Source: a virus
Taxonomy: Duplodnaviria; Caudoviricetes
DNA: 57,593 nucleotides
Reading direction: 5' to 3' (one strand)
Virus record (IMG/VR): IMGVR_UViG_3300033153_010811
Span: 1 to 57,593 of that record
The position numbers and the translations under genes are program-made. Below, piece after piece: positions 7,665 through 57,593 of the stretch. How positions within the stretch are numbered: the stretch's first letter is position 1; each line of letters starts with the position of its first letter. A model generated the notes under the pieces. It was not told the origin of the DNA. It did no database searches and was given only the letters and a program-made list of their open reading frames with translations.

Positions 7665-7997
7665 ATGAAGAAGAAAATCTATTTAGCGTGTCCTTTCAGC
7701 CACCCAGACCCGAAAGTAAGAGAGTGGAGAGTTGAACAGGCAAGCAAAAAGGCCGCTGAATTAATGGAGTCTGGATATTTAGTTTTCAGCCCTTTAAGTC
7801 ATTCTGTCCCGATTTCTAAATATTGTCGAGTTGACCCTTGTGATAATGATTTTTGGTTAGAGCAGGACCTCTGGATTCTTAGCAGTTGTGATGAGATCCG
7901 TGTTTTGTGTTTACCTGGATGGGAAAGATCTGAAGGTATAAAAGTGGAACTTGAGATTGCTAAGTCTTTAGGAAAAGTTTTATATTTGACATGTTAA
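7665..7997 (+). CDS. DUF1937/nucleoside deoxyribosyltransferase-like protein
   Basis: IYLACPFS...FSPLSHS...GWERSEGIKVE. Confidence 0.8.
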   Translation: MKKKIYLACPFSHPDPKVREWRVEQASKKAAELMESGYLVFSPLSHSVPISKYCRVDPCDNDFWLEQDLWILSSCDEIRVLCLPGWERSEGIKVELEIAKSLGKVLYLTC

Positions 7998-8866
7998 TAC
8001 GAGACCACTATCAAAATTTTAAGAGGTATAATCTTCCGAAAGCACAATTAATTATTGCCGACATCCCTTACAATATTGGTATAAACGCATATGGCTCCAA
8101 CCCGGCATGGTATATTGACGGAGATAACTCAAAAGGCGAAAGTGATCTTGCCGGCAAGAAGTTTTTCGCAACTGATGAGAATTTCAATTCTGCTGAATTT
8201 ATGCATTTTTGCAGCAAGATGATGAGAAAAGAGCCTAAAAAAAAGGGTTGTGCGCCTGCAATGATAATCTTTTGCTCGTTCGAGCAGCAACACGGATTAA
8301 TTGAACTTGCAAAACGGTATAACATAAAGAAATATATAAATTTAATTTTTAGAAAGAATTTTAGCGCGCAAGTTCTAAAGGCAAATATGAGAATTGTAAA
8401 TAACGCTGAATATGGTTTATTATTGTTTAGAGATAAGCTTCCAAAATTCAACAACAACGGAAAAATGATATTTAATATAATTGATTGGGAAAAGGATAAA
8501 AATACCAGCCCGTTATATGAAAAAATTCATCCTAATCAAAAGCCAATCCCTTTGCTCGAAAAACTAATAAATATTTTCACGGATGAGGGTGATGTGGTAG
8601 CCGATCCTGTAGCTGGGAGTGGATCGACAATAATAGCAGCAGAAAATCTTAACCGGAAGGCTTATGGTTTTGAAATAGATAGGAAAATTTATCAAAAAGC
8701 AGAAAAATGGATTAATTATAATAAAAAAGTTCGAGAAGAAATAAACAAAACGCTATTTTCACAAACGCTTCTAAATAAAACAGATCCAGGGCAAATGTAT
8801 TTATGGGGGAATTATGGGAACAAAACTGAAACGCAGAAAAAAGACCCGAAAGCAGAAAATAGCTGA
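7991..8866 (+). CDS. N4C/N6A DNA methyltransferase (beta class)
   Basis: DIPY motif IV before HPNQKP and DPVAGSGST motif I. Confidence 0.9.
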   Translation: MLIRDHYQNFKRYNLPKAQLIIADIPYNIGINAYGSNPAWYIDGDNSKGESDLAGKKFFATDENFNSAEFMHFCSKMMRKEPKKKGCAPAMIIFCSFEQQHGLIELAKRYNIKKYINLIFRKNFSAQVLKANMRIVNNAEYGLLLFRDKLPKFNNNGKMIFNIIDWEKDKNTSPLYEKIHPNQKPIPLLEKLINIFTDEGDVVADPVAGSGSTIIAAENLNRKAYGFEIDRKIYQKAEKWINYNKKVREEINKTLFSQTLLNKTDPGQMYLWGNYGNKTETQKKDPKAENS

Positions 8867-9159: not shown

Positions 9160-9161
9160 AA

Positions 9162-10714: not shown

Positions 10715-11032
10715 ATGAATGATGAAGCGGGTTGGAAACTAGTTGGGTTTGCGTTGATGTTATTGAGTGCCGCAATAATGGTATTTTCCATTATCGGGGT
10801 GTATGACTCTTTTTGGCATGTCCCGGCAAAAAACGCAGCGATATATCAACTATCTCAAAAAAATGAATTGTTGCAGGCCGAAAACCGTAAAATGAAAATA
10901 GCTATGCGTTTTGAGAATCTTTTCACAACCTTTGCGAACCCTAATCAAATGATCGACTTCAAAGAACTCGAAAATTACATCTGCGAAAAGCGCGGGTTCT
11001 GTTTAGATCCGGTCGATAAGAGGGTAAAATAA
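10715..11032 (+). CDS. Hypothetical membrane-anchored protein
   Basis: N-terminal TM helix; GGAGG RBS. Confidence 0.65.
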   Translation: MNDEAGWKLVGFALMLLSAAIMVFSIIGVYDSFWHVPAKNAAIYQLSQKNELLQAENRKMKIAMRFENLFTTFANPNQMIDFKELENYICEKRGFCLDPVDKRVK

Positions 11033-11496
11033 TGCGCGTGTTAGCAATAGACCCAGGTCCTGTCGAGTCGGCCTATGTTCAATGGGATGGGGAAAATATT
11101 GAAGGGTTTGGCCTGGAAGATAATGAGGCTATGCTTGATTTAGTAAGTTCGGTCGGGGAAGCTCCTAAAAATATGGTTATCGAACAAGTACGCTCATATG
11201 GGATGCCAGTCGGTGCTACCGTTTTCGACACGGTGTTTTGGACAGGCCGATTTTGCCAGGCCTGGCATGGTGATTTTTGGCTGGTGCCGAGAATAGAAAT
11301 CAAGCAACACATTTGCCATGATTCCAGGGCGAAGGATAGCAATATCAGACAGGCCCTTATTGATAGGTTTGAGCCAGATTTAAAACCGCGACAAAGACCT
11401 AAAGGAATTTTAAAGGGTGTTAAAAAAGACATCTGGCAAGCATTTGCCTTAGCGGTTTTTTTTGTGGACGTGCGAAGTAATCAGGTGCGATTGTAA
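11032..11496 (+). CDS. RuvC-like Holliday junction resolvase
   Basis: VLAIDPG, VIEQ, D.WQAFALA RNase H-fold motifs. Confidence 0.8.
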   Translation: MRVLAIDPGPVESAYVQWDGENIEGFGLEDNEAMLDLVSSVGEAPKNMVIEQVRSYGMPVGATVFDTVFWTGRFCQAWHGDFWLVPRIEIKQHICHDSRAKDSNIRQALIDRFEPDLKPRQRPKGILKGVKKDIWQAFALAVFFVDVRSNQVRL

Positions 11497-11501
11497 ATAT
11501 A

Positions 11502-11722
11502 TGCGAGCCAACGAAAAACTGAAACCTACTGGCGGTGTGCGAGCCAATATAAAAATAAAGCCCAGGTATGGATTGCGAGCCATTACATTTTTGAAACCCA
11601 GTGAAAGCATGCGAGCCAACATTGTATTAAAACCCATACGATCTATGCGAGCCATCTCGATATTGAAACCCAAGCCCAATGTGCGAGCCAGCAGATGCTT
11701 GAAATCCACAAAATTGATGCGA
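11502..11722 (+). ncRNA. TIGR-like guide array 1 (6 x 36-nt units)
   Basis: TGCGAGCCA at 11502, 11538, 11574, 11610, 11646, 11682, each followed by N9, a TGAAACCCA-like loop repeat and N9; terminal TGCGA at 11718. Confidence 0.9.
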
Positions 11723-11751
11723 AAACTTAACCCAAAAAAAGGAGAATAATT

Positions 11752-12378
11752 ATGCAATTCAAAATTGAAGAATTAAAAAAACGGTACGACAAAAAGAGTG
11801 TGGGGCAATGTGTCGCTGAAGCGAAAAGCCTTAACGAAAAAATGATCCAGCGAGGGGAGGAACTTGTCAGCTTACTCTGGTATCTCGAAAAAACCAAGCG
11901 ATTTCGCGAGTACAAAGGGTATGAGAAAATTGCTTTCAATGTTTTTGTCTTTGAAGTTTGCCACATTCCATACAACCGCTATAGGCAGCTTGCTTATGCT
12001 TACAATTGGTACCCCGTAGAATCGAGGGAATACGGTCCCCAGACCATTCAGAGGATTAGAAGTAAGGTCGGGGTTGTAAAAATCCCGAAGGTGCTGGGCG
12101 AAATTAAGAAAAAGGTTAGTAAAATAACGGCACCAGAGAAAAAACGAGAGGCGATTGAACAGGTTATTAAAAAATACGCGCCTCCGAAAAAAACTATCCC
12201 ATCGACCGATACGAAAGCATATTGGAAAAGCAAGTATGAGGAATTGTTGGAAAAGTATAAATTTCTCGAAAAAGAGAACGATGAAATGCGCAAACAATTA
12301 GCAAGGCAAAGAGTACCGCTGGAAAATTTCATGAAGATCCGGAACCTCATTCAAGAGGATTCGGTTCTATTACAGTAG
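11752..12378 (+). CDS. Unknown protein embedded between TIGR arrays (possible HTH plus C-terminal coiled coil)
   Basis: AGGAG RBS; GYEKIAFNVFVFEVCHIPYNRYRQL resembles DUF3102-like HTH segments (weak). Confidence 0.75.
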   Translation: MQFKIEELKKRYDKKSVGQCVAEAKSLNEKMIQRGEELVSLLWYLEKTKRFREYKGYEKIAFNVFVFEVCHIPYNRYRQLAYAYNWYPVESREYGPQTIQRIRSKVGVVKIPKVLGEIKKKVSKITAPEKKREAIEQVIKKYAPPKKTIPSTDTKAYWKSKYEELLEKYKFLEKENDEMRKQLARQRVPLENFMKIRNLIQEDSVLLQ

Positions 12379-12383
12379 AGTAG

Positions 12384-12499
12384 CACAAGCCGTCTCAATC
12401 ATAAAACCCAACGGAGCAATGCGAGCCAAAAAAGCCTTACTGAAACCCGTGGGTTACATGCGAGCCAAGGGGTGTTTGAAACCCACCGAATTGATGCGA
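12384..12499 (+). ncRNA. TIGR-like guide array 2 (3 units, one with a 12-nt spacer A)
   Basis: Degenerate first edge CACAAGCCG, edges at 12420 and 12459, terminal TGCGA at 12495; loop repeats at 12402, 12441, 12477. Confidence 0.85.
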
Positions 12500-12528
12500 A
12501 ACCATAACCCAAAAAAAGGAGAAAAATT

Positions 12529-13386
12529 ATGAACACCAAATGGAACGAAATATCGAACGAATTAAACTATGCGATTAAGAATTACAATGGTATAGTAAAA
12601 CAGATCGTACAGATCAAAAACCGAGCACATGCTTATGGGATTGACCCGAAACACGAAGTTCTAATCCATGGCAAGATCGCAAAAGACGGCACTTCCAGAA
12701 TGCAGGGCCTGGAATCATTGAAGGGTGTGGCAGCGCGAAAGATCGGTCGAATCCTGAAGGACTTCCCGATCTGGACCGAATGGCTTGACAATGTTCCGGG
12801 GATCGGTATGGTCATCGGCGGGCAGCTTATAGCACTTTATTATTTTAAGAATATCCCGATCTGCTCTAAATGCGGCGCTGACCTGAACGATAATTTCGAT
12901 TGCCCCATCTGCACAATGAAGGCGAAAGGACAGGGTATCCTTAAGTTCAGAGTGGAGCTTCGAGACTTCCCGACAATATCAAGCTGGTGGCATTTCATGG
13001 GCCGGCACGTAATAAAGGGGAAAATACCAACAAAAGGAAATGTTAAAAAACTAAAGGCCGGCGATTCGGGAAAGCTGGTCGATTGGTCATTCAGTGGTAA
13101 GAAGTTAGGATACGATTTTAAGGAGTCAATCAATAAAATGCCCAGCGACAACAAATACAAAGCATACGCAGAAAAACGAAAGCGGTACCGTGAGGAAACA
13201 CACCCGAACGCCACAAAGGGACACCGCCATAACATGGCATGGAACGAGGCCTGGAAGTTGTTCCTATCGCATTTTTGGCAGGTCGATCATATACTGAGCG
13301 GTGCAGAGATGACTAAGCCGTGGTGTGTTCAACACGGGGGGCATGACCAGAGTTCGATAATCCGACCGTTTTATTTTGAAACTTAA
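12529..13386 (+). CDS. tasA: Nop/IS110-like RNA-binding domain protein, TasA-like (no nuclease domain), with CxxC-CxxC insertion
   Basis: WLDNVPGIGMVIGGQLIA and FPTISSWWHFMG match IS110/Nop-domain motifs; C-terminal GHRHNMAWNEAWKLFLSHFW helix; flanked by 36-nt dual-repeat arrays. Confidence 0.8.
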   Translation: MNTKWNEISNELNYAIKNYNGIVKQIVQIKNRAHAYGIDPKHEVLIHGKIAKDGTSRMQGLESLKGVAARKIGRILKDFPIWTEWLDNVPGIGMVIGGQLIALYYFKNIPICSKCGADLNDNFDCPICTMKAKGQGILKFRVELRDFPTISSWWHFMGRHVIKGKIPTKGNVKKLKAGDSGKLVDWSFSGKKLGYDFKESINKMPSDNKYKAYAEKRKRYREETHPNATKGHRHNMAWNEAWKLFLSHFWQVDHILSGAEMTKPWCVQHGGHDQSSIIRPFYFET

Positions 13387-13396
13387 TTATAAAATA

Positions 13397-13689
13397 TGCG
13401 AGCCACGCCGCGCCTGGAACCCAAAGGAAATGTGCGAGCCATTTTCAATTTGAAACCCACTTGACATATGCGAGCCGGTCGCTAATTGAAGCCCAAAGAT
13501 CGAATGCGAGCCATTACTTCTCTGAAACCCAGCGAAACGGTGCGAGCCAAAGAGCTGTTGAAACCCGTGGGTTACATGCGAGCCATGAGAGGCGTGAAAA
13601 CTACTGAGATGATGCGAGCCAAGAATTGTTTGAAACCCATTGATGTCGTGCGAGCCACCACCATCTTGAAACCCATTGGCGGCATGCGA
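13397..13689 (+). ncRNA. TIGR-like guide array 3 (8 x 36-nt units)
   Basis: Edge repeats at 13397, 13433, 13469, 13505, 13541, 13577, 13613, 13649; terminal TGCGA at 13685. Confidence 0.9.
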
Positions 13690-13695
13690 CCTCAC

Positions 13696-13747
13696 CCCAA
13701 AAACCCCCTGAGAAGCCCTCAGAGGCTTTTCTCGGGGTTTTTTTGGG
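13696..13747. terminator. Bidirectional intrinsic terminator closing the TIGR locus
   Basis: AAAAACCCC-CTGAGAAG...CTTTTCTC-GGGGTTTTTTT hairpin between convergent units. Confidence 0.75.
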
Positions 13748-13799
13748 ATAGGTAAGGGGAGAGATAGGTAAGAGTAAAAGGGTCCTTAAAAAAGCCGCC

Positions 13800-14519
13800 C
13801 TAATTTTTAATAAAAACGCATTCTTTCGGACGGTTTTTCCTAACATTTTTCCCCCGAAGTCCCTGATCAATATCTGTCAGCCTAGTAAATGGCAGCCAAT
13901 TCGCTGATTCATTTTCGCAGCAAATTATTTGGCCGCGCCGAGATTTAACCCATGTGGCGAGTTTATGATAATTTAATTTATTTTCCGTATATAATCTCCC
14001 GGGCGTGTCTTGATACGGAGGATCGATGAACCATGTTGCGGTAATATTTGGAGCATCTTCGTATGATCTATGTAAAATTTTCCAGTGTTGTATTTTTGGA
14101 TGCCAGAATTTTATTTTTAAAATTGTGTTATGATACCAATGTTTTACTGCTATTTTAGTAATTGTATTGACTTTTACATTAAGCCCGCCTGTGCCAATAT
14201 TAGCGGACATTCTGAGGATATTTTTAAGACCTTGAGGGAAATCATCAAAATATTTAATATCATTGATTTTATCCCCAGCATTTACTTTTTTGGGAATTTT
14301 GTTAATATAATTTAACGCATCTTGCGATTTAACGAAATTCCATGCCTCTATTGTTTTTAGGTTCGTATCAAGTAAAATAATATTATGTTTATACCACCGC
14401 AAAGAATAAGCAGCCCCACCGGCAAATGGTTCGATTATAGTTTTATGTTTTGGTGGGGGATATTTGTTTACCAACATTCCTTTCCCCCCGTAATAATTGA
14501 AAACAATTCTATGTTTCAA
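13800..14519 (-). CDS. D12-class (Dam-like) N6-adenine DNA methyltransferase
   Basis: YYGGK, IEPFAGGA, FIDPPY. Confidence 0.9.
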   Translation of the reverse strand: MKHRIVFNYYGGKGMLVNKYPPPKHKTIIEPFAGGAAYSLRWYKHNIILLDTNLKTIEAWNFVKSQDALNYINKIPKKVNAGDKINDIKYFDDFPQGLKNILRMSANIGTGGLNVKVNTITKIAVKHWYHNTILKIKFWHPKIQHWKILHRSYEDAPNITATWFIDPPYQDTPGRLYTENKLNYHKLATWVKSRRGQIICCENESANWLPFTRLTDIDQGLRGKNVRKNRPKECVFIKN

Positions 14520-26145: not shown

Positions 26146-26526
26146 ATGATAAAGGGGAATGGAATGAATGAAAGTAAAGAAATACAATGGCGAAAAATAG
26201 GTGGGGGCTCCCTCCGGTACATTCGCGGTAAAATTATAAAACCAAATGAGATTTTTACCGCGCGACCGGAGGAAGTTCCACTTTCCTTTCGTAAACACGT
26301 AGTGGCATTAGAAGATATTCCAGAGACAGTAGTTGAACCTGTACAGCCTTTTACAGCCCGCCGGAGAGAACCTTCTTTGGAAGAAGGAGAGAAAGAAGCA
26401 TACAAAGTTCAAAAACGTTCTGCTGGTTGGTGGGATGTTGTTAATTCTGTATCAGGAAAAGTAATCAATGAAAAAGGACTTCGAGAAAAAGCCGCGAAAC
26501 AATTAGTGGAAGAATTAAATACATGA
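26146..26526 (+). CDS. Hypothetical head-module protein
   Basis: N-terminal WRKIGGGSLR domain shared with 27226..29343. Confidence 0.7.
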   Translation: MIKGNGMNESKEIQWRKIGGGSLRYIRGKIIKPNEIFTARPEEVPLSFRKHVVALEDIPETVVEPVQPFTARRREPSLEEGEKEAYKVQKRSAGWWDVVNSVSGKVINEKGLREKAAKQLVEELNT

Positions 26527-27236
26527 TTTGGACAGTTCCTCGATTGTGGGAAGGGGCTACATGTTGGATTATTGGAGGTGGTACTTCTGTACCTTTGCAG
26601 TTTGGAGTTCCTCAAGAGGTGATACGGAAAGTATATGAAGGACGGATTTTTCCTTCTGCTTATTCTGATTATATGTATCCACTCCATAATCAGCATGTGA
26701 TTGGTATTAATAATGCCTATCAGTTAGGAACATGGATTGATATTTTGTTTTTTGGAGATAGTCACTGGTATTTATTACATCGAAAGAAACTGGCAACCTG
26801 GCCAGGATTAAAGGTATGTTGTGATCAGAAATTTGCGAACCGGCCACAAAATAAAATGGAAGGAATTAAATTTCTTGAACGTGATAAAGCAAAAAGAGAA
26901 GGAATAACTTCTGATCCTTCAAAAGTATCCTGGAATGCAAATTCAGGCGCAGCGGCTATCAGTTTGGCTCATCATTTGGGAGTGCGGAGAATAAATCTAT
27001 TGGGATTTGATATGACTATGGACGAAAAAAAATCATACAGCCACTGGCATGGTTCCCATCTACCACCGGGACAGCGGGCAAAAAGGAGTCCTCCATTCCA
27101 GAGACATTTGAAAGCATTTCCTGCAATAGCACAAGACGCAGAAAAATTGGGAATAGAAATATACAATCTCAGTCCCGTTAGTAAAATTGATTGTTTTCCA
27201 AAAATTACATTGGAGGAAGCATTGAATGGATTGTGA
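26523..27236 (+). CDS. Sialyltransferase-/DUF115-like glycan-modifying enzyme
   Basis: IIGGGTS, IGINNAY, NSGAAAISLA..LG...I.LLGFDM. Confidence 0.65.
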   Translation: MIWTVPRLWEGATCWIIGGGTSVPLQFGVPQEVIRKVYEGRIFPSAYSDYMYPLHNQHVIGINNAYQLGTWIDILFFGDSHWYLLHRKKLATWPGLKVCCDQKFANRPQNKMEGIKFLERDKAKREGITSDPSKVSWNANSGAAAISLAHHLGVRRINLLGFDMTMDEKKSYSHWHGSHLPPGQRAKRSPPFQRHLKAFPAIAQDAEKLGIEIYNLSPVSKIDCFPKITLEEALNGL

Positions 27237-29345: not shown

Positions 29346-29945
29346 ATGGATTATAATTTTCTGATGCAATCCACAATGCAGATATTCAATAGATATTGCA
29401 TTTATCATATGGTTATGAGTAAGGAGGTGAAGGGCGATGTGATTGAATTAGGTGTTGGAACAGGGAAGAATTCTTTTCACCTGGCACGCGTGGTGAATGA
29501 TCTATCGCTCAACAAGAAAGTGTATGCTTGTGATACTTTTCAGGGTCTTCCATATACAGATGAGGGAACAGGAATAGAAAGTTCCCTGAAAAAAGGGGAG
29601 TGGTTTTACATAACTTTGGAACAATTCAGATTGGAAATTGCTAAAGAAAAATTGAATGGCGTTTTGATTCCTATTCAGGGGTTAATAGAAAAAACGCTTC
29701 CAGCGCAATTGAAGGATAAGAGGTTCTGTTTTGCCTGGTTGGATATGGATTTGTACAAATCCACTGTTTCAGGTTATAAATTCTTAGAAGACCGAATTTC
29801 GGTAGGCGGTATTCTGGGATTCCATGATTACAAAAATAAAATGTGCCCTGGAATTGTGAAGGCGGTGGATGAAGAAGTGAATAAGAATAAGTTCAAACAA
29901 ATCTTTTGCAGGGGAAGTAGTATCTTTTTCAGAAGGGCGGGATAA
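29346..29945 (+). CDS. TylF/MycF-family O-methyltransferase
   Basis: GDVIELGV, DTFQGLP, LDMDLYKS, GGILGFHDY. Confidence 0.85.
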   Translation: MDYNFLMQSTMQIFNRYCIYHMVMSKEVKGDVIELGVGTGKNSFHLARVVNDLSLNKKVYACDTFQGLPYTDEGTGIESSLKKGEWFYITLEQFRLEIAKEKLNGVLIPIQGLIEKTLPAQLKDKRFCFAWLDMDLYKSTVSGYKFLEDRISVGGILGFHDYKNKMCPGIVKAVDEEVNKNKFKQIFCRGSSIFFRRAG

Positions 29946-29949
29946 GAAT

Positions 29950-30585
29950 ATGGATGTGAGTTTGCTGGAGTATTTGGGGGATACATTACATTGGTTCCCG
30001 GAGAAGGGTATAGGATACTATCCAGTGAGTAATGGAAAGAAATATGATCAAGATTATTTCAATAAATACGTAAGGTATGAAAAAACTGAAATGGGTCGAG
30101 GGATCAATACTTTTAGAAAGGAATTAGTAAGTAAATATACACAAGGAAAAGTTTTAGATATTGGGATAGGGTGTGGTTCTTTCTTGAAAACATATAAGAA
30201 TGGTTTTGGATATGATATAAATCCAGTTGCAAAAGAATGGTTAGTTAAAAACAAACTTTGGTATGATCCATACAAACAAGATATTGAAATGTTTGCTGGA
30301 ATTGCTTTCTTCGATAGCTTGGAGCATATAGAAGATTTCAGTTCCCTGTTGCGACGCATGAAAAATCAGTTCTTGTTTGTTTCGATCCCAATATTCAGGG
30401 ATTTGCCTCATCTGTTACAATCGAAGCACCTTCGAAAGGATGAGCATTATTATTACTTTACTCAGACTTCTTTTATAGATTTCATGACGAAAGGATTGGG
30501 TTTCTCTTTATTTGAAGTTCGCGATGATGAGATTGGATTAGGCAGAGAAGATATTTGGACATTCGTATTCAAAGGAAGGGCGTAG
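29950..30585 (+). CDS. Class I SAM-dependent methyltransferase
   Basis: VLDIGIGCG, FDSLEHI. Confidence 0.85.
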   Translation: MDVSLLEYLGDTLHWFPEKGIGYYPVSNGKKYDQDYFNKYVRYEKTEMGRGINTFRKELVSKYTQGKVLDIGIGCGSFLKTYKNGFGYDINPVAKEWLVKNKLWYDPYKQDIEMFAGIAFFDSLEHIEDFSSLLRRMKNQFLFVSIPIFRDLPHLLQSKHLRKDEHYYYFTQTSFIDFMTKGLGFSLFEVRDDEIGLGREDIWTFVFKGRA

Positions 30586-30587
30586 TA

Positions 30588-31358
30588 ATGGGATATGGCG
30601 ATGAAATAATGGCTTTGGGCAGGGCGGAGACTGTCTATGGCATACTTAAAAGGCCTGTGGCAATCTATGGAGTGAGTGGGAGACCGCGTAATCATCCAGT
30701 ATGGAAGAACCATCCTGCGATAGATATTAATTCTCCATTGCATATTGTTGATGGTCCTTCTGCTCGCCCACATATACTTCGATGGAAACGTAATCCAGGA
30801 TTGACAACTATATGGAATATGAAATATCGCGCTCGTGCAGGTCGCATGCGTTTAACCACCCGAGAACAAAATGAAGCCCGATACTTGACTCCAAAGAAAC
30901 CTTTTGTAATTGTGGAGCCGATTGTGCGAAAACCCGGCAGTCGGAACAAGGATTGGGGATTTAATCGTTGGAAAGAAGTAATTAAAGATTTTCCACTTCC
31001 TGTGTATCAATTTGATCTGGATGGGGAAACTAAAATTCTTCCCGGGGTAACGGCGATACATTCTCCAGGTTTTAGAATTGCTGCTGGGATAGTCAAGCAT
31101 TCTACATTAGTAATGACAATAGATGGGGGCATGCATCATATGGCGGCCAGTATGAAAACTCCTGCAGTGGTGATATTTGGAGGTTTTGCTAATCCAAAGA
31201 TTACGGGATATGCATATCAGAGAAATTTTTATATTGATCTTCCAGAATCACCCTGTGGACGATATGCTCCATGCAAACATTGTGAAAAGGCAATGTCTAT
31301 GATTTCTCCAGAAGAAGTTCGGCAGGCGGCGTTAGAGATGTTGGAGAAAGTTTCATAG
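30588..31358 (+). CDS. GT9-family glycosyltransferase
   Basis: MGYGDEIM, KDWGFNRW, DGGMHHMAA...PAVVIFG. Confidence 0.8.
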   Translation: MGYGDEIMALGRAETVYGILKRPVAIYGVSGRPRNHPVWKNHPAIDINSPLHIVDGPSARPHILRWKRNPGLTTIWNMKYRARAGRMRLTTREQNEARYLTPKKPFVIVEPIVRKPGSRNKDWGFNRWKEVIKDFPLPVYQFDLDGETKILPGVTAIHSPGFRIAAGIVKHSTLVMTIDGGMHHMAASMKTPAVVIFGGFANPKITGYAYQRNFYIDLPESPCGRYAPCKHCEKAMSMISPEEVRQAALEMLEKVS

Positions 31359-31895: not shown

Positions 31896-32264
31896 ATGGC
31901 GAAACCAATAGAAAAATTTTTGAGAAAACTCAGTGTACAAACGGCCGTATATTGGGGATCTCCTGTAAATGATGGATATGGAGGATGTACTTACGCCACT
32001 CCGATTGAAATAGCTGTGCGTTGGGAAGGCTCAACAAAAGTAATTACTACCTCTAAAGGAGTAGAGTATGTCAGTCGAGCAGAAGTCATCGTAAATCAAG
32101 ATATAGACGAAGAAGGATATCTATATTTGGGAACATTATCAGATTTGACGGATGAACAGAAAGCTGATCCACAATTAGTAGATGGCGCATGGAAGATTAT
32201 AAGATTTGATAAGATTCCTATGATTTTTAAGACTGATGAGTGGGTGCGCAAATGTTACCTGTAA
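31896..32264 (+). CDS. Head closure/neck protein
   Basis: Position and size. Confidence 0.6.
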   Translation: MAKPIEKFLRKLSVQTAVYWGSPVNDGYGGCTYATPIEIAVRWEGSTKVITTSKGVEYVSRAEVIVNQDIDEEGYLYLGTLSDLTDEQKADPQLVDGAWKIIRFDKIPMIFKTDEWVRKCYL

Positions 32265-33061
32265 GTGGCGTTTACAGTATAAAAAATAATATTGATGGGA
32301 AACAGTATATTGGCAGTTCAATCAATATTAAGAGACGATTTTTATATCATCAGGAATATCTACGTAGAAAGGAACATTTTAATTGTCATTTGCAAAATGC
32401 TTGGAATAAATATGGAGAAGAAAACTTTGAATTTAAGATTCTTCTCTATTGTGATAAGGAGAATTTACTTTTTTATGAACAACGTGCCATTGATGTTTAC
32501 GCTGCCTTTGGAAGTGGTGGGTATAATTTACGTCCAAAAGCAGAAAATCAATTAGGCTTCAAGCTTTCTGAAGAAGCAAAATCAAAAATTTCAGAAGGGA
32601 ATAAAGGAAAAGTAATTTCAAAAGAACATAGAGAAAAAACAAGTAAAGCTTTAAGAGGAAGAAAGGTTTCAAACGAAACAAGAGAGAAAATAAGGAAAGC
32701 ACTTTCTGGGCGTCCTATTTCTGAGCATCAAAAGGAAGTTCTAAATCATGTTAGATATGGGATGCTTGGTAAGAAACATTCAGAGGCAACAAAATTAAAA
32801 ATGTCAAAGAGTGCTAAAGGAAGAATAATATCGGAGGAAACGAGAAAGAAATTATCAGAAGCACATAAAGGACAAGTAGCATGGAATAAGGGAAAGCCTT
32901 TTTCTGAAGAAATAAGACGTAAAATGCTGGGGCCTGTTTCCATAGAACACCGGCAGAGAATTTCTGCAGCTAATATGGGAAGGAAAGATTCAGAAATAAC
33001 ACGACAAAGAAAATCTGTAGCAGCAAAAAAGGGATGGATTAAAAGGAGGGCTTCCTTATAA
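32240..33061 (+). CDS. GIY-YIG homing endonuclease with NUMOD3 repeats
   Basis: GVYSI...YIGSS.N.KRR; repeated SEETRKKLS motifs. Confidence 0.9.
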   Translation: MGAQMLPVSGVYSIKNNIDGKQYIGSSINIKRRFLYHQEYLRRKEHFNCHLQNAWNKYGEENFEFKILLYCDKENLLFYEQRAIDVYAAFGSGGYNLRPKAENQLGFKLSEEAKSKISEGNKGKVISKEHREKTSKALRGRKVSNETREKIRKALSGRPISEHQKEVLNHVRYGMLGKKHSEATKLKMSKSAKGRIISEETRKKLSEAHKGQVAWNKGKPFSEEIRRKMLGPVSIEHRQRISAANMGRKDSEITRQRKSVAAKKGWIKRRASL

Positions 33062-33555: not shown

Positions 33556-33953
33556 ATCCGACATCTAAGGATGTATGCTCATTGTTAGAAGCAGATTCCA
33601 GTCTTGGATTGGTAATCGCTACTAATCTATTTGTTGGAAAAGAACCGGCATCCCCGGATGATTGCGTGACTGTGTTTGATATTCCAGGGGATTCCCCATC
33701 ACTTACATTAACAGGGAAAGGGGGCGGTGTTTATTATCAACCTTCTATTCAAATACGAGTTAGAAATAACAATTATGTGACAGGATGGGAATTAATGCAT
33801 GACATCCGGGAATTTTTACATGGTATGAATAACATAACAGAAGATGGAACAGAGTATCTGTTAATCAGAAGTGTGGATGAACCAGCTTTGCTTGATTGGG
33901 ATGAGAATAATCGTGCAAGATTCATAACAACATTCTCAATACAGCGAAGATAA
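33552..33953 (+). CDS. Tail terminator (minor capsid-type)
   Basis: PSIQIRVR, L..DENNR; position. Confidence 0.7.
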   Translation: MNPTSKDVCSLLEADSSLGLVIATNLFVGKEPASPDDCVTVFDIPGDSPSLTLTGKGGGVYYQPSIQIRVRNNNYVTGWELMHDIREFLHGMNNITEDGTEYLLIRSVDEPALLDWDENNRARFITTFSIQRR

Positions 33954-35211: not shown

Positions 35212-37744
35212 TTTAGGAACCTTATATACCTCGTTTGGAGCTGACCTCGGTCCGTTGAAGCGATCTGCGACTGCTGCGGAAGCACAGTTTCGTAAGTTTC
35301 AGAAAGGAGGTGTTGCGGCATTAACTACTGTGCGAAAAGAAGTAGTTAATTTGCGCAATTCTATGATTGCTCTTAGCGCCATTGCCATTGCCGCGAAATT
35401 GGTGAAGGAAGCTGCAGAGTATGAAGAGGCATTAGTTGATATGCACAAAGTCACTTCTCGCTCGTTCAAAGCGATTAACAAAGACATTATGTCTCTTGAC
35501 TCCAGTCTTGGAAAATCTACCGACTTAATGAGGGGCTATTATCAAACAATCTCAGCTGGGGTAACGGAACCGAAAAAGGCAATGGATTTGTTAGTTACCG
35601 CTTCTAAATTGGCGAAGGTTGCCCATATTGACCAGGCAACTGCCGTGAAAACCCTGGCTGTTATGATGGGCTCTTATGGGGATGAATTGAAAAGTACTAC
35701 AGATGTCGCAAATTTACTCCTTGCCATTGAAGCAAAAGGGATAACAACTACAGGGGAAATGGCTGCACAGATAGGCCTGGTGGCCAACCTGTCACGTGAA
35801 ACCGGTTTGGCTGCAAATGAAATGGGCGCCGCATTAGCACAAATAACAAAAAGTGGAATAGGAACCGCGGAGAGTGTGACGCAATTACGATCATTATTAA
35901 CAGCATTGACCAAGAATTTTGATGAACTTCCTCCTTCTATTAAGAAATATGGTTCCGTTACGAATGCAATACAGAAATTGAGTTTTATAGAAACGCTGCA
36001 AGAAATAATGACTGCCACTGGGGACAACGCGCAAGCTCTAACAAAAATGTTAGGACGACAGGAAGCTTTTCTTGCGATGCTGCAATTATTGAAAAGGGAT
36101 GGAAAAGAATACGAAGATGTCCTGTCGGGAATGATAGATAAAACAGGTGGGCTAACTAAGGCATGGAAGGAATATGAAGAGACTTACAAGGCAATGAAAG
36201 AAGCTGTGCTTGCTGACCTGAATAAAATCATGATTGAATTAGGAATGAGAACTCTTCCAACGGTTAAGGAGGCATTGAAAGGTATTCGTGATAATATGGA
36301 TTTGATTTCCACAGCAGTTAATAATCTTTTGAAGATAGCTGGTGTGTCTATTAAAATTTTGACAGGTTGGTTAGTACACAAGTCTTTCAGAGCATTTCTT
36401 GTTTGGACATCATTGGCTACTGCCGGAGTAGGCAAAGTAGCTACTGCTGTTAATCTGCTTCGTATTTCCATCAAGGCGTTGGGACGGGCCGCGCTTTATG
36501 GTCTGATCGTAGAAGGTATCTCGCGAGTAGTATCTGAATTTAGGAAGATGAATAAATTTGTGAAAGAAACTCCTGCGGCATGGGGGGCTGCAATACGTTT
36601 GGCAATGGATAACATTGTGAACACTGTGATTAATAGTTTTGTGGCTCTTGGTAATTTGATGCCAAACTTATTACGCTTAATTACTGATCCAATAATTGCC
36701 GCGTTCACATCTTTTAACATTCTGAATTTGATATTTGGTGATTTGACAAAAGAAGAAGCATGGACAGCAGTGATATCATCAATGAAAACAGCCTTTACGG
36801 ATGCTTTAACACGCATTGGGGATACTTTTCAAGCGGATATGTCGCGACGAATTGTTTCAATTGCTTCTGAGATTGATAAAGTACTTTTACGAGATTGGTC
36901 GAAATTGCCAAAGGAAGTTACTGACGGAATGAACGAGAAAAAGGGTCTCAGCAATGTAAGTGAAGGTCTCAGCAATGTAAGTGAAGGTCTCAGCAATGTA
37001 AATAGAGAACTTCAGCAATATTACGGCTGGTGGTCTGCATACGGCGAGACCATGGAAGATTTTTATACGACAAATTCAGAGGTAATGCTTGATTTTGCGA
37101 AAGAGAATTTTTCTACTCTTGAAAATTTATCCCAACGAACCGCCGAGGCTATGGAACAGAACTTTTCTGATTTTTATTTTGACGCCATGCGAGGAGAATT
37201 TGATTCTTTGCGAGATTATGCCAATGCCGCGCTCAGAAGTATTCAACGTGCTACTGCCGATATCCTGGGGCAGATGACTAAGGAGCTTATATTTGGAGAA
37301 GGCTCTGGGGGTGGTGGACTGATACAAAGCGCTGGAAAATGGCTTGGGTCTTTATTTGGCGGTGGTAGTTCTGGGTATAATCCAGCAGATTGGGCCGAAA
37401 CGTTGTGGGCGAAAGGGGGAGTGTTTGAAAAAGGTCGTGTCCATGCTTTTGCGCGTGGAAGCGTTATAAATCGTCCCACACTTTTCCCCATGGCCCGTGG
37501 CGCCGGCCTTATGGGCGAGGCTGGTCCAGAGGCTATTATGCCACTAACCAGAACGTCATCGGGAGACCTGGGAGTTAGAGCAGAAGGGGCTGGTAGAGGA
37601 GTTACGAATATTAATATATATGCCTGGGACAGTCAGAGCATGGAGCAGTTTGTTCGGCGCCATAAAGACATATTTGTTGGGATTAATGTTGAAAACATTG
37701 AGCGCAATGGCGATCTCAGGCAGGCGATAGGAGCAACAATCTGA
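35204..37744 (+). CDS. Tape measure protein
   Basis: 846 aa, helical, Ala-rich; C-terminal AKGG...MGEAGPEAIMPL. Confidence 0.9.
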   Translation: MADLGTLYTSFGADLGPLKRSATAAEAQFRKFQKGGVAALTTVRKEVVNLRNSMIALSAIAIAAKLVKEAAEYEEALVDMHKVTSRSFKAINKDIMSLDSSLGKSTDLMRGYYQTISAGVTEPKKAMDLLVTASKLAKVAHIDQATAVKTLAVMMGSYGDELKSTTDVANLLLAIEAKGITTTGEMAAQIGLVANLSRETGLAANEMGAALAQITKSGIGTAESVTQLRSLLTALTKNFDELPPSIKKYGSVTNAIQKLSFIETLQEIMTATGDNAQALTKMLGRQEAFLAMLQLLKRDGKEYEDVLSGMIDKTGGLTKAWKEYEETYKAMKEAVLADLNKIMIELGMRTLPTVKEALKGIRDNMDLISTAVNNLLKIAGVSIKILTGWLVHKSFRAFLVWTSLATAGVGKVATAVNLLRISIKALGRAALYGLIVEGISRVVSEFRKMNKFVKETPAAWGAAIRLAMDNIVNTVINSFVALGNLMPNLLRLITDPIIAAFTSFNILNLIFGDLTKEEAWTAVISSMKTAFTDALTRIGDTFQADMSRRIVSIASEIDKVLLRDWSKLPKEVTDGMNEKKGLSNVSEGLSNVSEGLSNVNRELQQYYGWWSAYGETMEDFYTTNSEVMLDFAKENFSTLENLSQRTAEAMEQNFSDFYFDAMRGEFDSLRDYANAALRSIQRATADILGQMTKELIFGEGSGGGGLIQSAGKWLGSLFGGGSSGYNPADWAETLWAKGGVFEKGRVHAFARGSVINRPTLFPMARGAGLMGEAGPEAIMPLTRTSSGDLGVRAEGAGRGVTNINIYAWDSQSMEQFVRRHKDIFVGINVENIERNGDLRQAIGATI
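36944..37001 (+). repeat. 21-nt in-frame tandem repeat in tape measure
   Basis: GGTCTCAGCAATGTAAGTGAA x2.8 (GLSNVSE). Confidence 0.9.
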
Positions 37745-57164: not shown

Positions 57165-57218
57165 AGATAACGATTAAGTCAGCCGCCGTTATCGATCGGC
57201 TGGACTGGCTGGTTATAT
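57165..57218 (-). repeat. attC-like site (54 bp)
   Basis: ATATAAC-CAGCCAGTCCAGCCGAT...CGGCTGACTTAATC-GTTATCT. Confidence 0.8.
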
Positions 57219-57593
57219 GTTAGCACGGACGGCCTAAACACCACAACGGCAGAGGGAAATGGAGCGCTATTTTTACTGCCGCCAAATTTTAATCGCCCTG
57301 GAACAAACCATATATCTCCCTTGCTTGCATATCTCTGCCACCACTTTGTGTCTGTCCGAGCAGGGACAAGACAAACTACAAGATGTCCTTGTAATGCTGT
57401 CTCATAAGCTTTTTTCATCCACTTGCCTATCTCTCGGCCATAGGGCGGATTTATCCAACATCGACTATCCCATTCTTTTTCAAATAATCTTAATTGACCA
57501 TCAATTATCAATTTGTCTGTTTCGCAAAAATAATCCGTATAAGCCCAACCACAAGCTTTAAAAACGTTTTCAATAATGGCTTGCGCCACAGGC
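57179..57593 (-). CDS. Phage N6-adenine methyltransferase domain (5' end beyond right edge)
   Basis: CWINPPYGREIGKW, LVPARTDTKWW, GRLKF, APFPS. Confidence 0.85.
   Translation of the reverse strand, partial: PVAQAIIENVFKACGWAYTDYFCETDKLIIDGQLRLFEKEWDSRCWINPPYGREIGKWMKKAYETALQGHLVVCLVPARTDTKWWQRYASKGDIWFVPGRLKFGGSKNSAPFPSAVVVFRPSVLTYNQPVQPIDNGG

What the first reader, a model, noticed from the sequence alone, without database searches (positions are those of the whole stretch)
11502..13747. Phage-encoded TIGR-Tas-like RNA-guided system: three dual-repeat arrays around a nuclease-less Nop-domain protein
Seen: 17 units (6+3+8) of TGCGAGCCA-[9-nt A]-TGAAACCCA-[9-nt B] with a strict 36-nt period, except one 39-nt unit. 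Spacers vary while both repeats are conserved, with CCA before and TG after nearly every spacer. The adjacent 285-aa protein has IS110/Nop-domain motifs (VPGIG...LIA; FPTISSWWHFMG) and a strong terminator ends the locus. Known: TIGR arrays have this edge/loop/two-spacer design, are processed into ~36-nt tigRNAs, and guide Tas proteins to DNA with the two spacers pairing to opposite strands. Inferred: with no RuvC or HNH domain visible, this is a TasA-type binder that may repress or mark DNA of competing elements or the host instead of cutting it.
Basis: partly seen in the sequence, partly recalled or inferred. Interest (0 to 1): 0.95.

Follow-up and report, generated by a model that had tools for sequence, protein, structure and literature searches.

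The report
Phage TIGR-TasA guide-RNA locus
A tailed-phage genome carries three arrays of short dual-repeat guide RNAs around a nuclease-free Tas protein and a conserved partner gene, a genuine but already described kind of RNA-guided DNA-binding system (TIGR-Tas) whose natural targets are still unknown.

Summary
There are 17 units (6+3+8) of TGCGAGCCA-N9-TGAAACCCA-N9, with a 36-nt period and one 39-nt unit. Fifteen composite matches compare with 0.01 expected by chance.

The 285-aa protein matches the solved TIGR-TasR structure 9MTY by sequence (E 5e-16; family profile 7e-42). Its ten best fold matches are all TasR or TasH chains. It has no RuvC or HNH domain, so it is a TasA.

The two repeats are letter-for-letter those of the studied TaTasR and ParTasR arrays. 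The contig is a siphovirus-like phage.

Its family sits beside TasA in 48 of 56 related loci. It is probably the "TasParB" of Faure et al. 2025, but I could not reproduce any ParB likeness.

No target of any guide was found above chance.

Verdict: a new member of a known kind. Relatives of this TasA are already in the 2025 discovery data set. Interest is moderate to low. The open questions are the partner protein and the natural targets.

The parts
11502..11722 (+). TIGR array 1: six 36-nt units (edge TGCGAGCCA, spacer A, loop TGAAACCCA, spacer B) and a 3'-truncated edge TGCGA
   Evidence: It starts 6 nt after the stop of the upstream gene.
11723..11751 (+). Array-to-gene junction with the Shine-Dalgarno AAGGAG. 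It is nearly identical to the junction before tasA.
   Evidence: TGCGAAAACTTAACCCAAAAAAAGGAGAATAATTATG compared with TGCGAAACCATAACCCAAAAAAAGGAGAAAAATTATG.
11752..12378 (+). 208-aa TIGR-associated accessory gene ('p208'). It is all-helical, with a 54-residue C-terminal helix and a possible helix-turn-helix near residues 52-79. It is probably the 'TasParB' of Faure et al. 2025.
   Evidence: ORF. AlphaFold2 pLDDT 87.7. A member of its family lies beside TasA in 48 of 56 related loci. ParB likeness was not reproduced.
12384..12499 (+). TIGR array 2: three units (first edge degenerate, second unit 39 nt) and a 3'-truncated edge TGCGA
12500..12528 (+). Second array-to-gene junction with AAGGAG
12529..13386 (+). 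tasA: a 285-aa Tas protein with an N-terminal long helix and a Nop domain, no nuclease domain, and a CxxC...CxxC zinc-ribbon insertion at residues about 106-144
13397..13689 (+). TIGR array 3: eight 36-nt units and a 3'-truncated edge TGCGA
13699..13744 (+). Intrinsic-terminator-like hairpin with an A-run before it and a U-run after it. It lies between the locus and the convergent methyltransferase gene.
   Evidence: -34.7 kcal/mol; 3 of 200 shuffles folded as well. One search lists its inner stem on both strands.

Best explanation
This is a dual-repeat TIGR-TasA system carried as a cassette in a siphovirus-like phage.

Shown here:
- Three same-strand arrays hold 17 guide units whose repeats carry box D (UG) and box C (CCA).
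- A Tas-family Nop protein without a nuclease domain lies between arrays 2 and 3.
- A conserved 208-aa partner gene lies between arrays 1 and 2.
- Each array ends in a 3'-truncated edge repeat, and one terminator closes the locus.

Inferred from the published family:
- The block is transcribed as one precursor. A TasA dimer binds each unit through the UG and CCA anchors.
- The precursor is cut in the middle of the edge repeats into 36-nt tigRNAs (one of 39 nt). The same cuts would leave the two mRNAs with short leaders that start just before AAGGAG.
- Having no nuclease, the complex binds and blocks (transcription, replication or another protein) instead of cutting. The likely targets are DNA of the host or of rival mobile elements.

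The histidine of the published processing dyad is present (H272), but the tyrosine is a tryptophan (W265), as in TaTasR. Processing may therefore need a host RNase. The partner protein probably acts with TasA at DNA; how it does so is not known.
For: Array:
- 15 composite matches against 0.01 expected by chance; unit table.
- The repeats are identical to those of the TaTIGR and ParTIGR arrays printed in Table S1 of PMC12045711. The paper's text says both repeats start with UG and end with CCA, the loop is A-rich, and arrays end in a 3'-truncated edge followed by a terminator.
- Terminator.

Protein:
- phmmer hit to 9mty_A, E 5.1e-16. 9MTY is the TasR ribonucleoprotein of that paper.
- The 50-sequence family profile gives E 7.1e-42 to TasR and 1.5e-13 to TasH.
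- AlphaFold2 model: pLDDT 88.7, pTM 0.86.
- Foldseek ranks 1-10 are all TasR or TasH chains (E 2.2e-7 to 4.8e-4), followed by IS621 and ISCro4 (E 0.047-0.066).
- Only TasR residues 141-325 are matched, not its RuvC part.
- Conserved positions (of 50 sequences): H272 is H in 46; the aromatic at 195 in 50; the basic residue at 191 in 50.

Family context:
- 53 of 56 related loci have at least one 36-nt-lag array.
- Every anchored array lies on the TasA strand.
- The 235 unique guides are shared only among four sets of loci with nearly the same arrays (L014/L015; L030-L035; L017/L018; L003/L004), while the repeats stay constant.
- The edge variant TGTGAACCA changes positions 3 and 6 together, C-G to U-A. 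CTA replaces CCA in both the edge and the loop of L021 and L023. The paper reports the same kind of covariation.

Non-cutting role: a TasA and catalytically dead TasR proteins repress reporter and chromosomal genes in a guide-dependent way (preprint 10.64898/2026.09.09.750476, section read).

Phage: terminase, portal, head, tape-measure, tail-fibre and endolysin families. It is a virus record with an estimated completeness of 79%.
Against: - There is no RNA evidence of any kind for this locus.
- Pfam's Nop and IS110 models do not match the protein at E up to 1.
- No Nop5 or Nop56 structure appears among the rows.
- The tyrosine of the SpTasH processing dyad (Y289) is W265 here. In the family that column is Y in 31 and W in 19 of 50.
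- No target was found. The window has none at 0 or 1 mismatch. The 677 kb of related loci have no exact match, and 1-mismatch hits are at shuffle level. Exact hits of two 18-mers in the viral collection are few and not homologous to each other.
- The experimental demonstration of repression was for a stem-loop-type TasA, not a dual-repeat one.
- The promoter scan found no more sites than shuffles did.
Confidence: 0.88

Rival explanations
1. Two-protein system. In this TasA clade the 208-aa protein is an obligate second component and the real effector. TasA with its tigRNA finds the 18-bp site. The coiled-coil dimer of p208 then binds or bridges DNA there, for example to silence, exclude or segregate a replicon. 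This extends the best explanation and does not exclude it.
For: - A p208-family ORF lies next to tasA in 48 of 56 related loci by profile search, and in 40 of 57 sources by tblastn with the single protein.
- The pair is kept although the gene order flips: p208 is upstream in the window, L001 and L053, and downstream in 36.
- None of four flanking genes of the window (the RuvC-like gene, the 105-aa ORF, the replication-protein gene and the convergent methyltransferase) has a tblastn match in any of the 56 loci. A fifth, the PAPS-reductase-like gene, matches in L007 and L029, about 2.3 and 8.8 kb from tasA.
- Both genes carry the same array-end/AAGGAG junction.
- The model has a 54-residue C-terminal helix.
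- Faure et al. describe tasParB-tasA operons with arrays upstream, downstream and between the genes.
Against: - No DNA-binding family was confirmed for p208.
- FpTasA, which Faure et al. describe as having no accessory domains and no clear association with other proteins, still binds 36-nt RNAs. MbTasA ribonucleoprotein binds DNA and represses a reporter.
- 8 of 56 loci show no p208-family ORF. L043 has 2 bases and L006 159 bases of contig left downstream of tasA, and L056 holds only a 50-residue tasA fragment.
Confidence: 0.3
2. The repeats act as DNA, not RNA: arrays of protein-binding sites (centromere-like or iteron-like) for p208 or for the nearby replication protein.
For: - Partition and replication loci often carry arrays of short direct repeats (general knowledge).
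- A replication-protein family gene lies 0.9 kb upstream.
- p208 gave weak leads to plasmid-partition-like families.
Against: - The same two repeats are transcribed and processed into guide RNAs in the TaTasR system, which has no such partner.
- The arrays always lie on the TasA strand.
- The spacers are hypervariable while the UG and CCA anchors are fixed.
- Paired changes within the edge repeat fit an RNA pair.
Confidence: 0.03
3. Split nuclease system. The RuvC-like resolvase gene that ends 6 nt before array 1 (11032..11496) supplies in trans the nuclease that TasR carries as a fusion, so the system cuts its targets.
For: - The two are adjacent and on the same strand.
- The gene matches a PHROG Holliday-junction-resolvase family, E 2.5e-15.
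- TasR is a RuvC-Nop fusion.
Against: - No relative of this gene is present in any of the 56 related loci.
- It has no sequence match to any solved chain, 9MTY included, at E up to 1.
- Such resolvases are ordinary members of phage recombination modules. Erf, exonuclease and NinB genes are present in this phage.
Confidence: 0.03
4. A decaying relic: the arrays and genes are inherited but no longer functional.
For: - Array 2 has a degenerate first edge and a 39-nt unit.
- The processing tyrosine is replaced.
- No targets were found.
Against: - Both ORFs are intact with strong ribosome-binding sites.
- 15 of 17 edge repeats are exact.
- Invariant family residues are kept, including the four cysteines and H248-F249-W250.
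- W at the tyrosine position is shared by 19 of 50 relatives and by the active TaTasR.
Confidence: 0.05

Closest known systems
TaTIGR-TasR (Thermoproteota archaeon; PDB 9MTY) and ParTIGR-TasR, Faure et al. 2025 (PMC12045711)
   Same: - The same edge (TGCGAGCCA) and loop (TGAAACCCA) repeats, 9-nt spacers and 36-nt unit.
- A homologous coiled-coil and Nop part (E 5e-16; profile 7e-42).
- W, not Y, at the SpTasH Y289 position, and the same HGGH motif.
   Different: - No RuvC domain.
- A roughly 40-residue zinc-ribbon insertion where TaTasR has 5 residues.
- A partner gene and three arrays instead of the two (one upstream, one downstream) listed for TaTIGR.
- A phage, not an archaeal or CPR genome.
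TIGR-TasA systems (FpTasA; MbTasA, PlTasA and BlTasA of the 2026 preprints)
   Same: - A Tas protein made of the Nop domain alone, with guide arrays.
- FpTasA binds 36-nt RNAs from a dual-repeat array.
- A TasA represses genes under guide control.
   Different: - FpTIGR has other repeats.
- MbTasA, PlTasA and BlTasA use stem-loop guides.
- No experiment exists for this clade.
tasParB-tasA operons (Faure et al. 2025, Methods section and Discussion; fig. S14 not readable here)
   Same: - A second gene in an operon with tasA.
- Dual-repeat arrays upstream, downstream and between the two genes.
- The partner is predicted to dimerise through its C-terminal region.
- The flanks are diverse (compared).
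   Different: - The paper speaks of 10-nt repeats and of HHpred matches to ParB domains. Here the repeats are 9 nt.
- No ParB match was obtained by Pfam, PDB profile search, Foldseek, VIA-align or hhalign against 30 ParB proteins.
- Identity with TasParB is therefore probable, not shown.
SpTIGR-TasH (Salicola phage CGphi29)
   Same: - Phage-borne, with a dual-repeat array.
- A homologous Nop domain (profile E 1.5e-13).
- The H296 equivalent is present (H272).
   Different: - No HNH domain.
- The Y289 equivalent is W265.
- 9-nt heteroduplexes here against 8-nt ones in SpTasH.
IS110-family bridge-RNA recombinases and archaeal/eukaryotic box C/D snoRNPs
   Same: - An RNA-binding fold of the Nop type and a two-part guide flanked by box C/D-like motifs.
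- PHROGs labels the nearest phage family 'transposase'.
   Different: - No DEDD/RuvC recombinase domain and no fibrillarin partner.
- Guides come in arrays.
- Fold matches to IS621 are weak (E 0.047-0.066).
- No Nop5 row was listed.
CRISPR-Cas, especially the non-cutting type IV and V-M systems
   Same: Arrays of repeats and variable spacers that are processed into guides. The paper itself proposes interference without cleavage as an analogy.
   Different: - The repeats are 9 nt and of two kinds, and the guide is split over both DNA strands.
- No cas genes turned up in the two gene scans, which were PHROGs on 65 ORFs and Pfam on 40. No dedicated cas or defence library was searched.

Membership tests
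TIGR-Tas, dual-repeat type | Array of two distinct alternating 8-12-nt repeats separated by spacers of about 9 nt, with a unit of about 36 nt repeated several times | tested here: met
   17 units: 16 of 36 nt and 1 of 39 nt. The repeats and spacers are 9 nt. There are 15 composite matches against 0.01 expected by chance. Definition from the paper.
TIGR-Tas, dual-repeat type | Both repeats begin with box D (UG) and end with box C (CCA). The loop repeat is A-rich between them. | tested here: met
   Edge TG...CCA in 15 of 17 units. Loop begins with TG in 14 of 17 and ends with CCA in 13 of 17. Loop consensus is TG-AAAC-CCA. Definition from the paper.
TIGR-Tas, dual-repeat type | An extra base pair in the edge repeat, supported by covariation; box motifs covary between edge and loop | tested here: met
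   Among relatives, edge TGCGAGCCA becomes TGTGAACCA (positions 3 and 6, C-G to U-A) in L007, L024 and L054. CTA ends both repeats in L021 and L023. The window itself has only the common form.
TIGR-Tas, dual-repeat type | [quoted passage not shown] | tested here: met
   All three arrays end in TGCGA. A hairpin with a U-run lies at 13699-13744 after the last one.
TIGR-Tas, dual-repeat type | An adjacent gene for a Tas protein (Nop domain homologous to TasA, TasR or TasH) | tested here: met
   9mty E 5.1e-16. Family profile 7.1e-42 to TasR and 1.5e-13 to TasH. Foldseek ranks 1-10 are TasR or TasH chains. Relatives are in Data S1 of the discovery paper.
TIGR-Tas, dual-repeat type | The array is transcribed and processed into tigRNAs of about 36 nt that are bound by the Tas protein | not testable with these tools
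   No RNA data could be obtained for this locus.
TIGR-Tas, dual-repeat type | The Y/H dyad on the C-terminal loop that cuts the precursor (SpTasH Y289 and H296) | tested here: inconclusive
   H272 aligns with H296; that column is H in 46 of 50. W265 aligns with Y289; that column is Y in 31 and W in 19 of 50. TaTasR also has W there, and it is required for processing.
TIGR-Tas, dual-repeat type | Guide-dependent binding of an 18-bp DNA site, with the two spacers pairing to opposite strands | not testable with these tools
   Only indirect evidence. The residues aligned with the TaTasR junction pair are an aromatic at 195 (50 of 50) and a basic residue at 191 (50 of 50). No natural target was found.
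TasA subtype (Nop domain only) | No HNH or RuvC domain fused to the Nop domain | tested here: met
   - 285 aa.
- No nuclease family in Pfam at E up to 1.
- Only TasR residues 141-325 are matched.
- The model is an N-terminal long helix plus the Nop part.
- The inserted zinc ribbon (residues 106-144) contains no histidine.
tasParB-tasA operon | A second gene in an operon with tasA, with arrays upstream, downstream and between | tested here: met
   The window order is array, p208, array, tasA, array. A p208-family ORF is beside tasA in 48 of 56 loci.
tasParB-tasA operon | The partner is homologous to ParB | tested here: inconclusive
   - No ParB family among the Pfam matches listed for p208 itself or among the 25 most-shared families of 31 and 138 relatives.
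- No ParB family in PDB profile searches.
- No ParB_N match in the window.
- Foldseek and VIA-align gave only coiled-coil rows.
- hhalign against 30 ParB proteins: probability 0.2-0.9%.
- Weak leads to DUF3102 and Plasmid_parti_N.
- HHpred with full libraries was not available.
CRISPR-Cas | A single repeat of 25-36 nt, spacers of similar size, and cas genes | tested here: not met
   There are two alternating 9-nt repeats. No cas family appeared among 65 ORFs scanned in PHROGs and 40 scanned in Pfam.
IS110-family transposase | A DEDD/RuvC-like catalytic domain plus the RNA-binding C-terminal domain, and a single bridge RNA | tested here: not met
   No PF01548 or PF02371 match at E up to 1. Only weak fold matches to IS621 (E 0.047-0.066). 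There is no N-terminal catalytic domain.

The most novel reading that the evidence does not exclude
In this large TasA clade, the 208-aa helical, coiled-coil protein is an obligate second subunit. The unit would then be a two-protein, RNA-programmed DNA-handling machine. TasA with its tigRNA chooses an 18-bp address. The partner dimer acts there by bridging, silencing or segregating a replicon. That would be a programmable, centromere-like or exclusion function carried by phages as a portable cassette. The one guide whose spacer B is nearly the reverse complement of the loop repeat occurs twice. It could then be a self-addressed guide that regulates the locus itself.
Probability: 0.2. Interest if true: 0.7.

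Novelty: new member of a known kind. Interest (0 to 1): 0.35.

Why it matters
TIGR-Tas is a recently described family (2025) of compact, motif-free RNA-guided DNA binders and cutters. Two main questions about it remain open: what the guides target in nature, and what the nuclease-free TasA forms do.

This locus does not add a new principle. It is, however, a clean and largely complete (about 79%) phage example with 17 native guides and the exact repeats of the best-studied TasR. TaTasR and ParTasR tigRNA designs carry these same repeats, though no cross-use with this TasA was tested.

It also shows that in this clade a second, unannotated protein travels with TasA in 48 of 56 loci. The discovery paper mentions such a partner only briefly, as "occasional".

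If the host genome of this phage were known, the 17 guides would allow a direct test for natural targets.

Tried and rejected
**Targets**
- Window against its own 17 guides, both half-orders: nothing at 0 or 1 mismatch. The best hit had 2 mismatches, for an AT-rich guide at 33813.
- 235 guides from all loci against 677,240 bases of loci plus the window: no exact match and four 1-mismatch hits.
- I then dropped 10 near-duplicate loci (L004, L015, L018, L027, L031-L035, L044). The 1-mismatch hits were 1 and 2, against a shuffle mean of 0.4 each. The control order A+B gave one exact hit.
They gave 6 hits (4 independent sites) and 2 hits, with flanks not homologous to each other, so chance level.
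An 18-mer is expected several times by chance in collections of that size.
- The order of the two half-sites is not stated in the text I read, and a search of the supplements did not give it. Both orders were therefore always tested.

**Partner protein**
- Pfam, PHROGs, PDB profile searches, Foldseek (PDB and BFVD), VIA-align wide, two ESM Atlas look-ups, hhalign against a DUF3102-like family (probability 3.3% over 26 columns) and hhalign against 30 ParB proteins gave no family.
- The VIA-align rows cover only the C-terminal helix.
- Complex prediction of TasA with p208 gave no verdict.

**RNA and expression**
- The look-up of sequencing runs listed no run, so no reads could be laid.
- Rfam gave no match at E up to 1.
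- The promoter scan was equal to shuffles.

**Other checks**
- GenBank phages have no tblastn match to TasA or p208.
- The split-TasR idea, with the upstream RuvC-like gene as the nuclease, was rejected.
- The reading that the 36-nt repeats encode a 12-residue protein repeat was rejected. ORFs are open over the arrays on both strands. The conserved letters are the RNA anchors, and the arrays match characterised TIGR arrays.
- Spacer B nearly complementary to the loop repeat occurs only in the window, as one spacer present twice. 20 of 500 shuffles reached that count. It remains unexplained.

**Supplements**
- Fig. S14 and the supplementary PDF of PMC12045711 could not be read.
- Table S1 is held only up to about 4.0 million characters, so I could not check whether this exact protein or p208 is listed there.


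Full report
**1. What is in the sequence**

Between 11502 and 13689 on the + strand lie three arrays of a composite unit: TGCGAGCCA, 9 variable bases, TGAAACCCA, 9 variable bases.
- Array 1 has six units (11502-11717).
- Array 2 has three (12384-12494). Its first edge is degenerate (CACAAGCCG) and its second unit is 39 nt long, with a 12-nt first spacer.
- Array 3 has eight (13397-13684).
- Each array ends with the first five letters of the edge repeat, TGCGA.

The exact edge repeat occurs 15 times on the + strand, all inside the arrays, and once elsewhere in the window on the other strand. The composite pattern with up to two mismatches matches 15 times, against a mean of 0.01 in 100 shuffles. 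CCA precedes 28 of 34 spacers and TG follows 31 of 34 (counted by hand). Spacer columns vary freely. Tandem Repeats Finder did not list the arrays.

After array 3 comes a hairpin with a U-run at 13699-13744 (-34.7 kcal/mol; 3 of 200 shuffles fold as well). It faces a convergent adenine-methyltransferase gene.

**2. The genes**

Two ORFs lie between the arrays, both on the + strand. One encodes 208 aa (11752..12378) and sits between arrays 1 and 2. The other encodes 285 aa (12529..13386) and sits between arrays 2 and 3.

Both are preceded by almost the same junction: truncated edge, TAACCCAAAAAAAGGAGAA, then ATG. If the precursor is cut in the edge repeats, each mRNA would be left with a short leader and a strong ribosome-binding site. 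This is an inference.

**3. The 285-aa protein is a TasA**

Library searches:
- Pfam gives nothing at E up to 1 apart from noise.
- PHROGs gives a family labelled 'transposase' (E 5.7e-10).

Sequence searches:
- Against all solved chains, the single sequence hits 9mty_A with E 5.1e-16. Residues 70-103 and 146-273 align with TasR 159-192 and 198-313.
- 9MTY is the TasR-tigRNA-DNA complex of Faure et al. 2025.
- A profile of 50 relatives hits TasR at 7.1e-42 and TasH at 1.5e-13.

Structure:
- The AlphaFold2 model is confident (pLDDT 88.7, pTM 0.86).
- Its ten best Foldseek matches in the PDB are all TasR or TasH chains (E 2.2e-7 to 4.8e-4). IS621 and ISCro4 recombinases follow at E 0.047-0.066.
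- No Nop5 or Nop56 entry was among the listed rows.

Subtype and clade features:
- Only the coiled-coil and Nop part of TasR (141-325) is matched, and there is no nuclease domain. The protein is therefore a TasA.
- A clade-specific feature is a CxxC...CxxC zinc ribbon (C112, C115, C125 and C128, each invariant in 50 of 50). It is inserted where TaTasR has five residues.
- The residues aligned with the aromatic-basic pair at the unwinding junction of TaTasR are conserved: an aromatic at 195 in 50 of 50 and R or K at 191 in 50 of 50.

Processing dyad:
- The two residues that cut the precursor in SpTasH are Y289 and H296 (passages of PMC13421893; section 10 of the preprint 10.64898/2026.09.09.750476).
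- The histidine is present here as H272 (H in 46 of 50).
- The tyrosine is W265 (that column is Y in 31 and W in 19 of 50).
- TaTasR has the same tryptophan.

**4. The array is a canonical dual-repeat TIGR array**

The discovery paper defines these arrays as two alternating 8-12-nt repeats with 9-nt spacers. [quoted passage not shown] Both repeats start with UG (box D) and end with CCA (box C). The loop is A-rich, and the edge repeat has an extra pair (section read). All of this is met here.

In addition, the arrays of the studied TaTasR and ParTasR systems are printed in Table S1 (first part read). They use the same TGCGAGCCA and TGAAACCCA repeats.

Data S1 of that paper is the seed alignment of the clade without RuvC. 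It holds sequences with the motifs of this very family, such as LNY..KTYDG, VPGIG, RDFP.IS.W and KLFLSHFWQVARTL.

**5. Relatives**

I fetched 46 viral contigs and 10 contigs of bacterial or archaeal genome bins that encode relatives (25-69% identity over the best segment). The bins are Desulfobacterota bins, Smithella, Methanoperedens, a 'Pseudomonadota' bin and two more distant ones.
- At least one array with a 36-nt lag was found in 53 of the 56. L043, L045 and L050 had none.
- Every array found with the UG/CCA anchors lies on the TasA strand.
- The loop repeat is almost constant. The edge repeat has variants. TGTGAACCA changes positions 3 and 6 together (C-G to U-A). CTA replaces CCA in both repeats of L021 and L023. 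The paper describes covariation of this kind.
- The 235 unique guides are shared only among four sets of loci with nearly the same arrays (L014/L015; L030-L035; L017/L018; L003/L004). None is shared with the window.
- GenBank phages have no match to either protein.

**6. The 208-aa partner**

- It has 30 close relatives and 311 representative clusters at E up to 0.001.
- Contig lengths repeated in the two hit lists already hinted that the two proteins co-occur.
- By tblastn with the single protein, a relative lies beside tasA in 40 of 57 sources: 36 downstream, 3 upstream (window, L001, L053) and 1 on the other strand.
- With a profile of 138 relatives, 48 of 56 loci have one. Of the 8 without one, L043 has 2 bases and L006 159 bases of contig left downstream of tasA, and L056 holds only a 50-residue tasA fragment.
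- Four flanking genes of the window (the RuvC-like gene, the 105-aa ORF, the replication-protein gene and the methyltransferase) have no tblastn match in any of the 56 loci. The PAPS-reductase-like gene matches in L007 and L029 only. The unit of arrays, tasA and partner therefore behaves as a portable cassette.
- The model is entirely helical and ends in a 54-residue helix (pLDDT 87.7, pTM 0.58).

Faure et al. report a parB-like gene, tasParB, in operons with tasA. [quoted passage not shown] TasParB is named in no other paper of the library. The architecture is the same, so this protein is probably TasParB.

I could not reproduce a ParB likeness:
- No ParB family among the Pfam matches listed for the protein itself or among the 25 most-shared families of its 31 or 138 relatives.
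- None in PDB profile searches.
- No ParB_N in the window.
- Foldseek and VIA-align returned only coiled-coil rows.
- hhalign against 30 ParB proteins gave a probability of 0.2-0.9%.

The weak leads all point to DUF3102 and the Borrelia plasmid-partition family:
- ESM Atlas, scores 0.90-0.92.
- BFVD Foldseek, E 0.05-2, with three DUF3102 rows.
- hhalign against a DUF3102-like family, 3.3% over 26 columns at a helix-turn-helix-like stretch, residues 52-79.

**7. Context**

The window is a whole virus record, linear, with an estimated completeness of 79%. It carries terminase, portal, head, tape-measure, tail-fibre and endolysin genes, a recombination module, and several DNA methyltransferases and homing or HNH endonucleases. 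No integrase or repressor family was seen among the ORFs scanned. The locus closes a block of same-strand genes that starts near 9160.

**8. How it most likely works**

Shown: the anatomy and the family membership.

Inferred from the family:
- One precursor RNA is bound unit by unit by TasA dimers and cut in the edge repeats into 36-nt guides.
- Each guide addresses an 18-bp site through two 9-nt duplexes on opposite strands.
- Without a nuclease, the complex blocks instead of cutting, as shown for a TasA and for dead TasR proteins in a 2026 preprint.

Because W replaces the catalytic Y, a host RNase may be needed for processing. The discovery paper proposed this for TaTasR.

The target class is unknown. 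Searches in the phage itself, in 677 kb of related loci and, for one guide, in the viral collection gave nothing above chance.

**9. Verdict**

This is a genuine TIGR-TasA locus and a new member of a known kind. The features that go beyond the published description are:
- near-constant linkage to the partner gene in this clade;
- the zinc-ribbon insertion;
- the identity of its repeats with those of the TasR systems used for editing.

What remains open is what the guides address and what the partner does.

Noticed in passing
window 12441-12458 and 13559-13576: The same loop variant plus spacer B (TGAAACCCG TGGGTTACA) occurs in array 2 unit 2 and array 3 unit 5. This spacer B is the reverse complement of the loop consensus with one mismatch, so in one half-order each of these guides lies 2 mismatches from its own array DNA. 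None of the other 233 guides from related loci shows this. It could be a trace of recombination between arrays or a self-addressed guide.
   Followed up: partly
window 11032-11496: A RuvC-like Holliday-junction-resolvase gene (phrog_1770, E 2.5e-15) ends 6 nt before array 1. It is not found in any of the 56 related TIGR loci, so it is probably the phage's own resolvase and not part of the system.
   Followed up: yes
window 11462-11749, 13486-13755 (+) and 11449-11757, 13387-13695 (-): ORFs of 89-102 aa are open across the arrays on both strands and translate into 12-residue repeats. They are by-products of stop-free repeats and could be miscalled as genes.
   Followed up: partly
window 7991-8866, 13800-14519 (-), 29346-30585, 57179-57589 (-): There are at least four or five methyltransferase-family genes, one of them a D12-class adenine methylase convergent with the TIGR locus. 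This suggests heavy investment in evading host restriction.
   Followed up: no
window 26523-27236, 30555-31358 and 32240-33061: Sialyltransferase-like and glycosyltransferase-9-like genes, and a homing-endonuclease gene, sit inside the structural module between the head and connector genes.
   Followed up: no
window 36944-37001 and 40824-40885: Perfect or near-perfect tandem repeats (21 nt x 2.8 copies; 24 nt x 2.6 copies) lie inside the tape-measure and tail-fibre genes.
   Followed up: no
genome handle G006: One Desulfobacterota-phylum genome has 29 separate matches to the ParB_N domain, mostly in ORFs of 310-345 aa. The other 58 matching genomes have 1-4. It may be a multiplied mobile element.
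   Followed up: no
L010 guide against L008:10139; L001 guide against L003:2987 and L004:8600: Among the few 1-mismatch guide hits between related loci, one falls inside the tasA gene of another locus. The total count is at shuffle level, so this is a lead only.
   Followed up: partly
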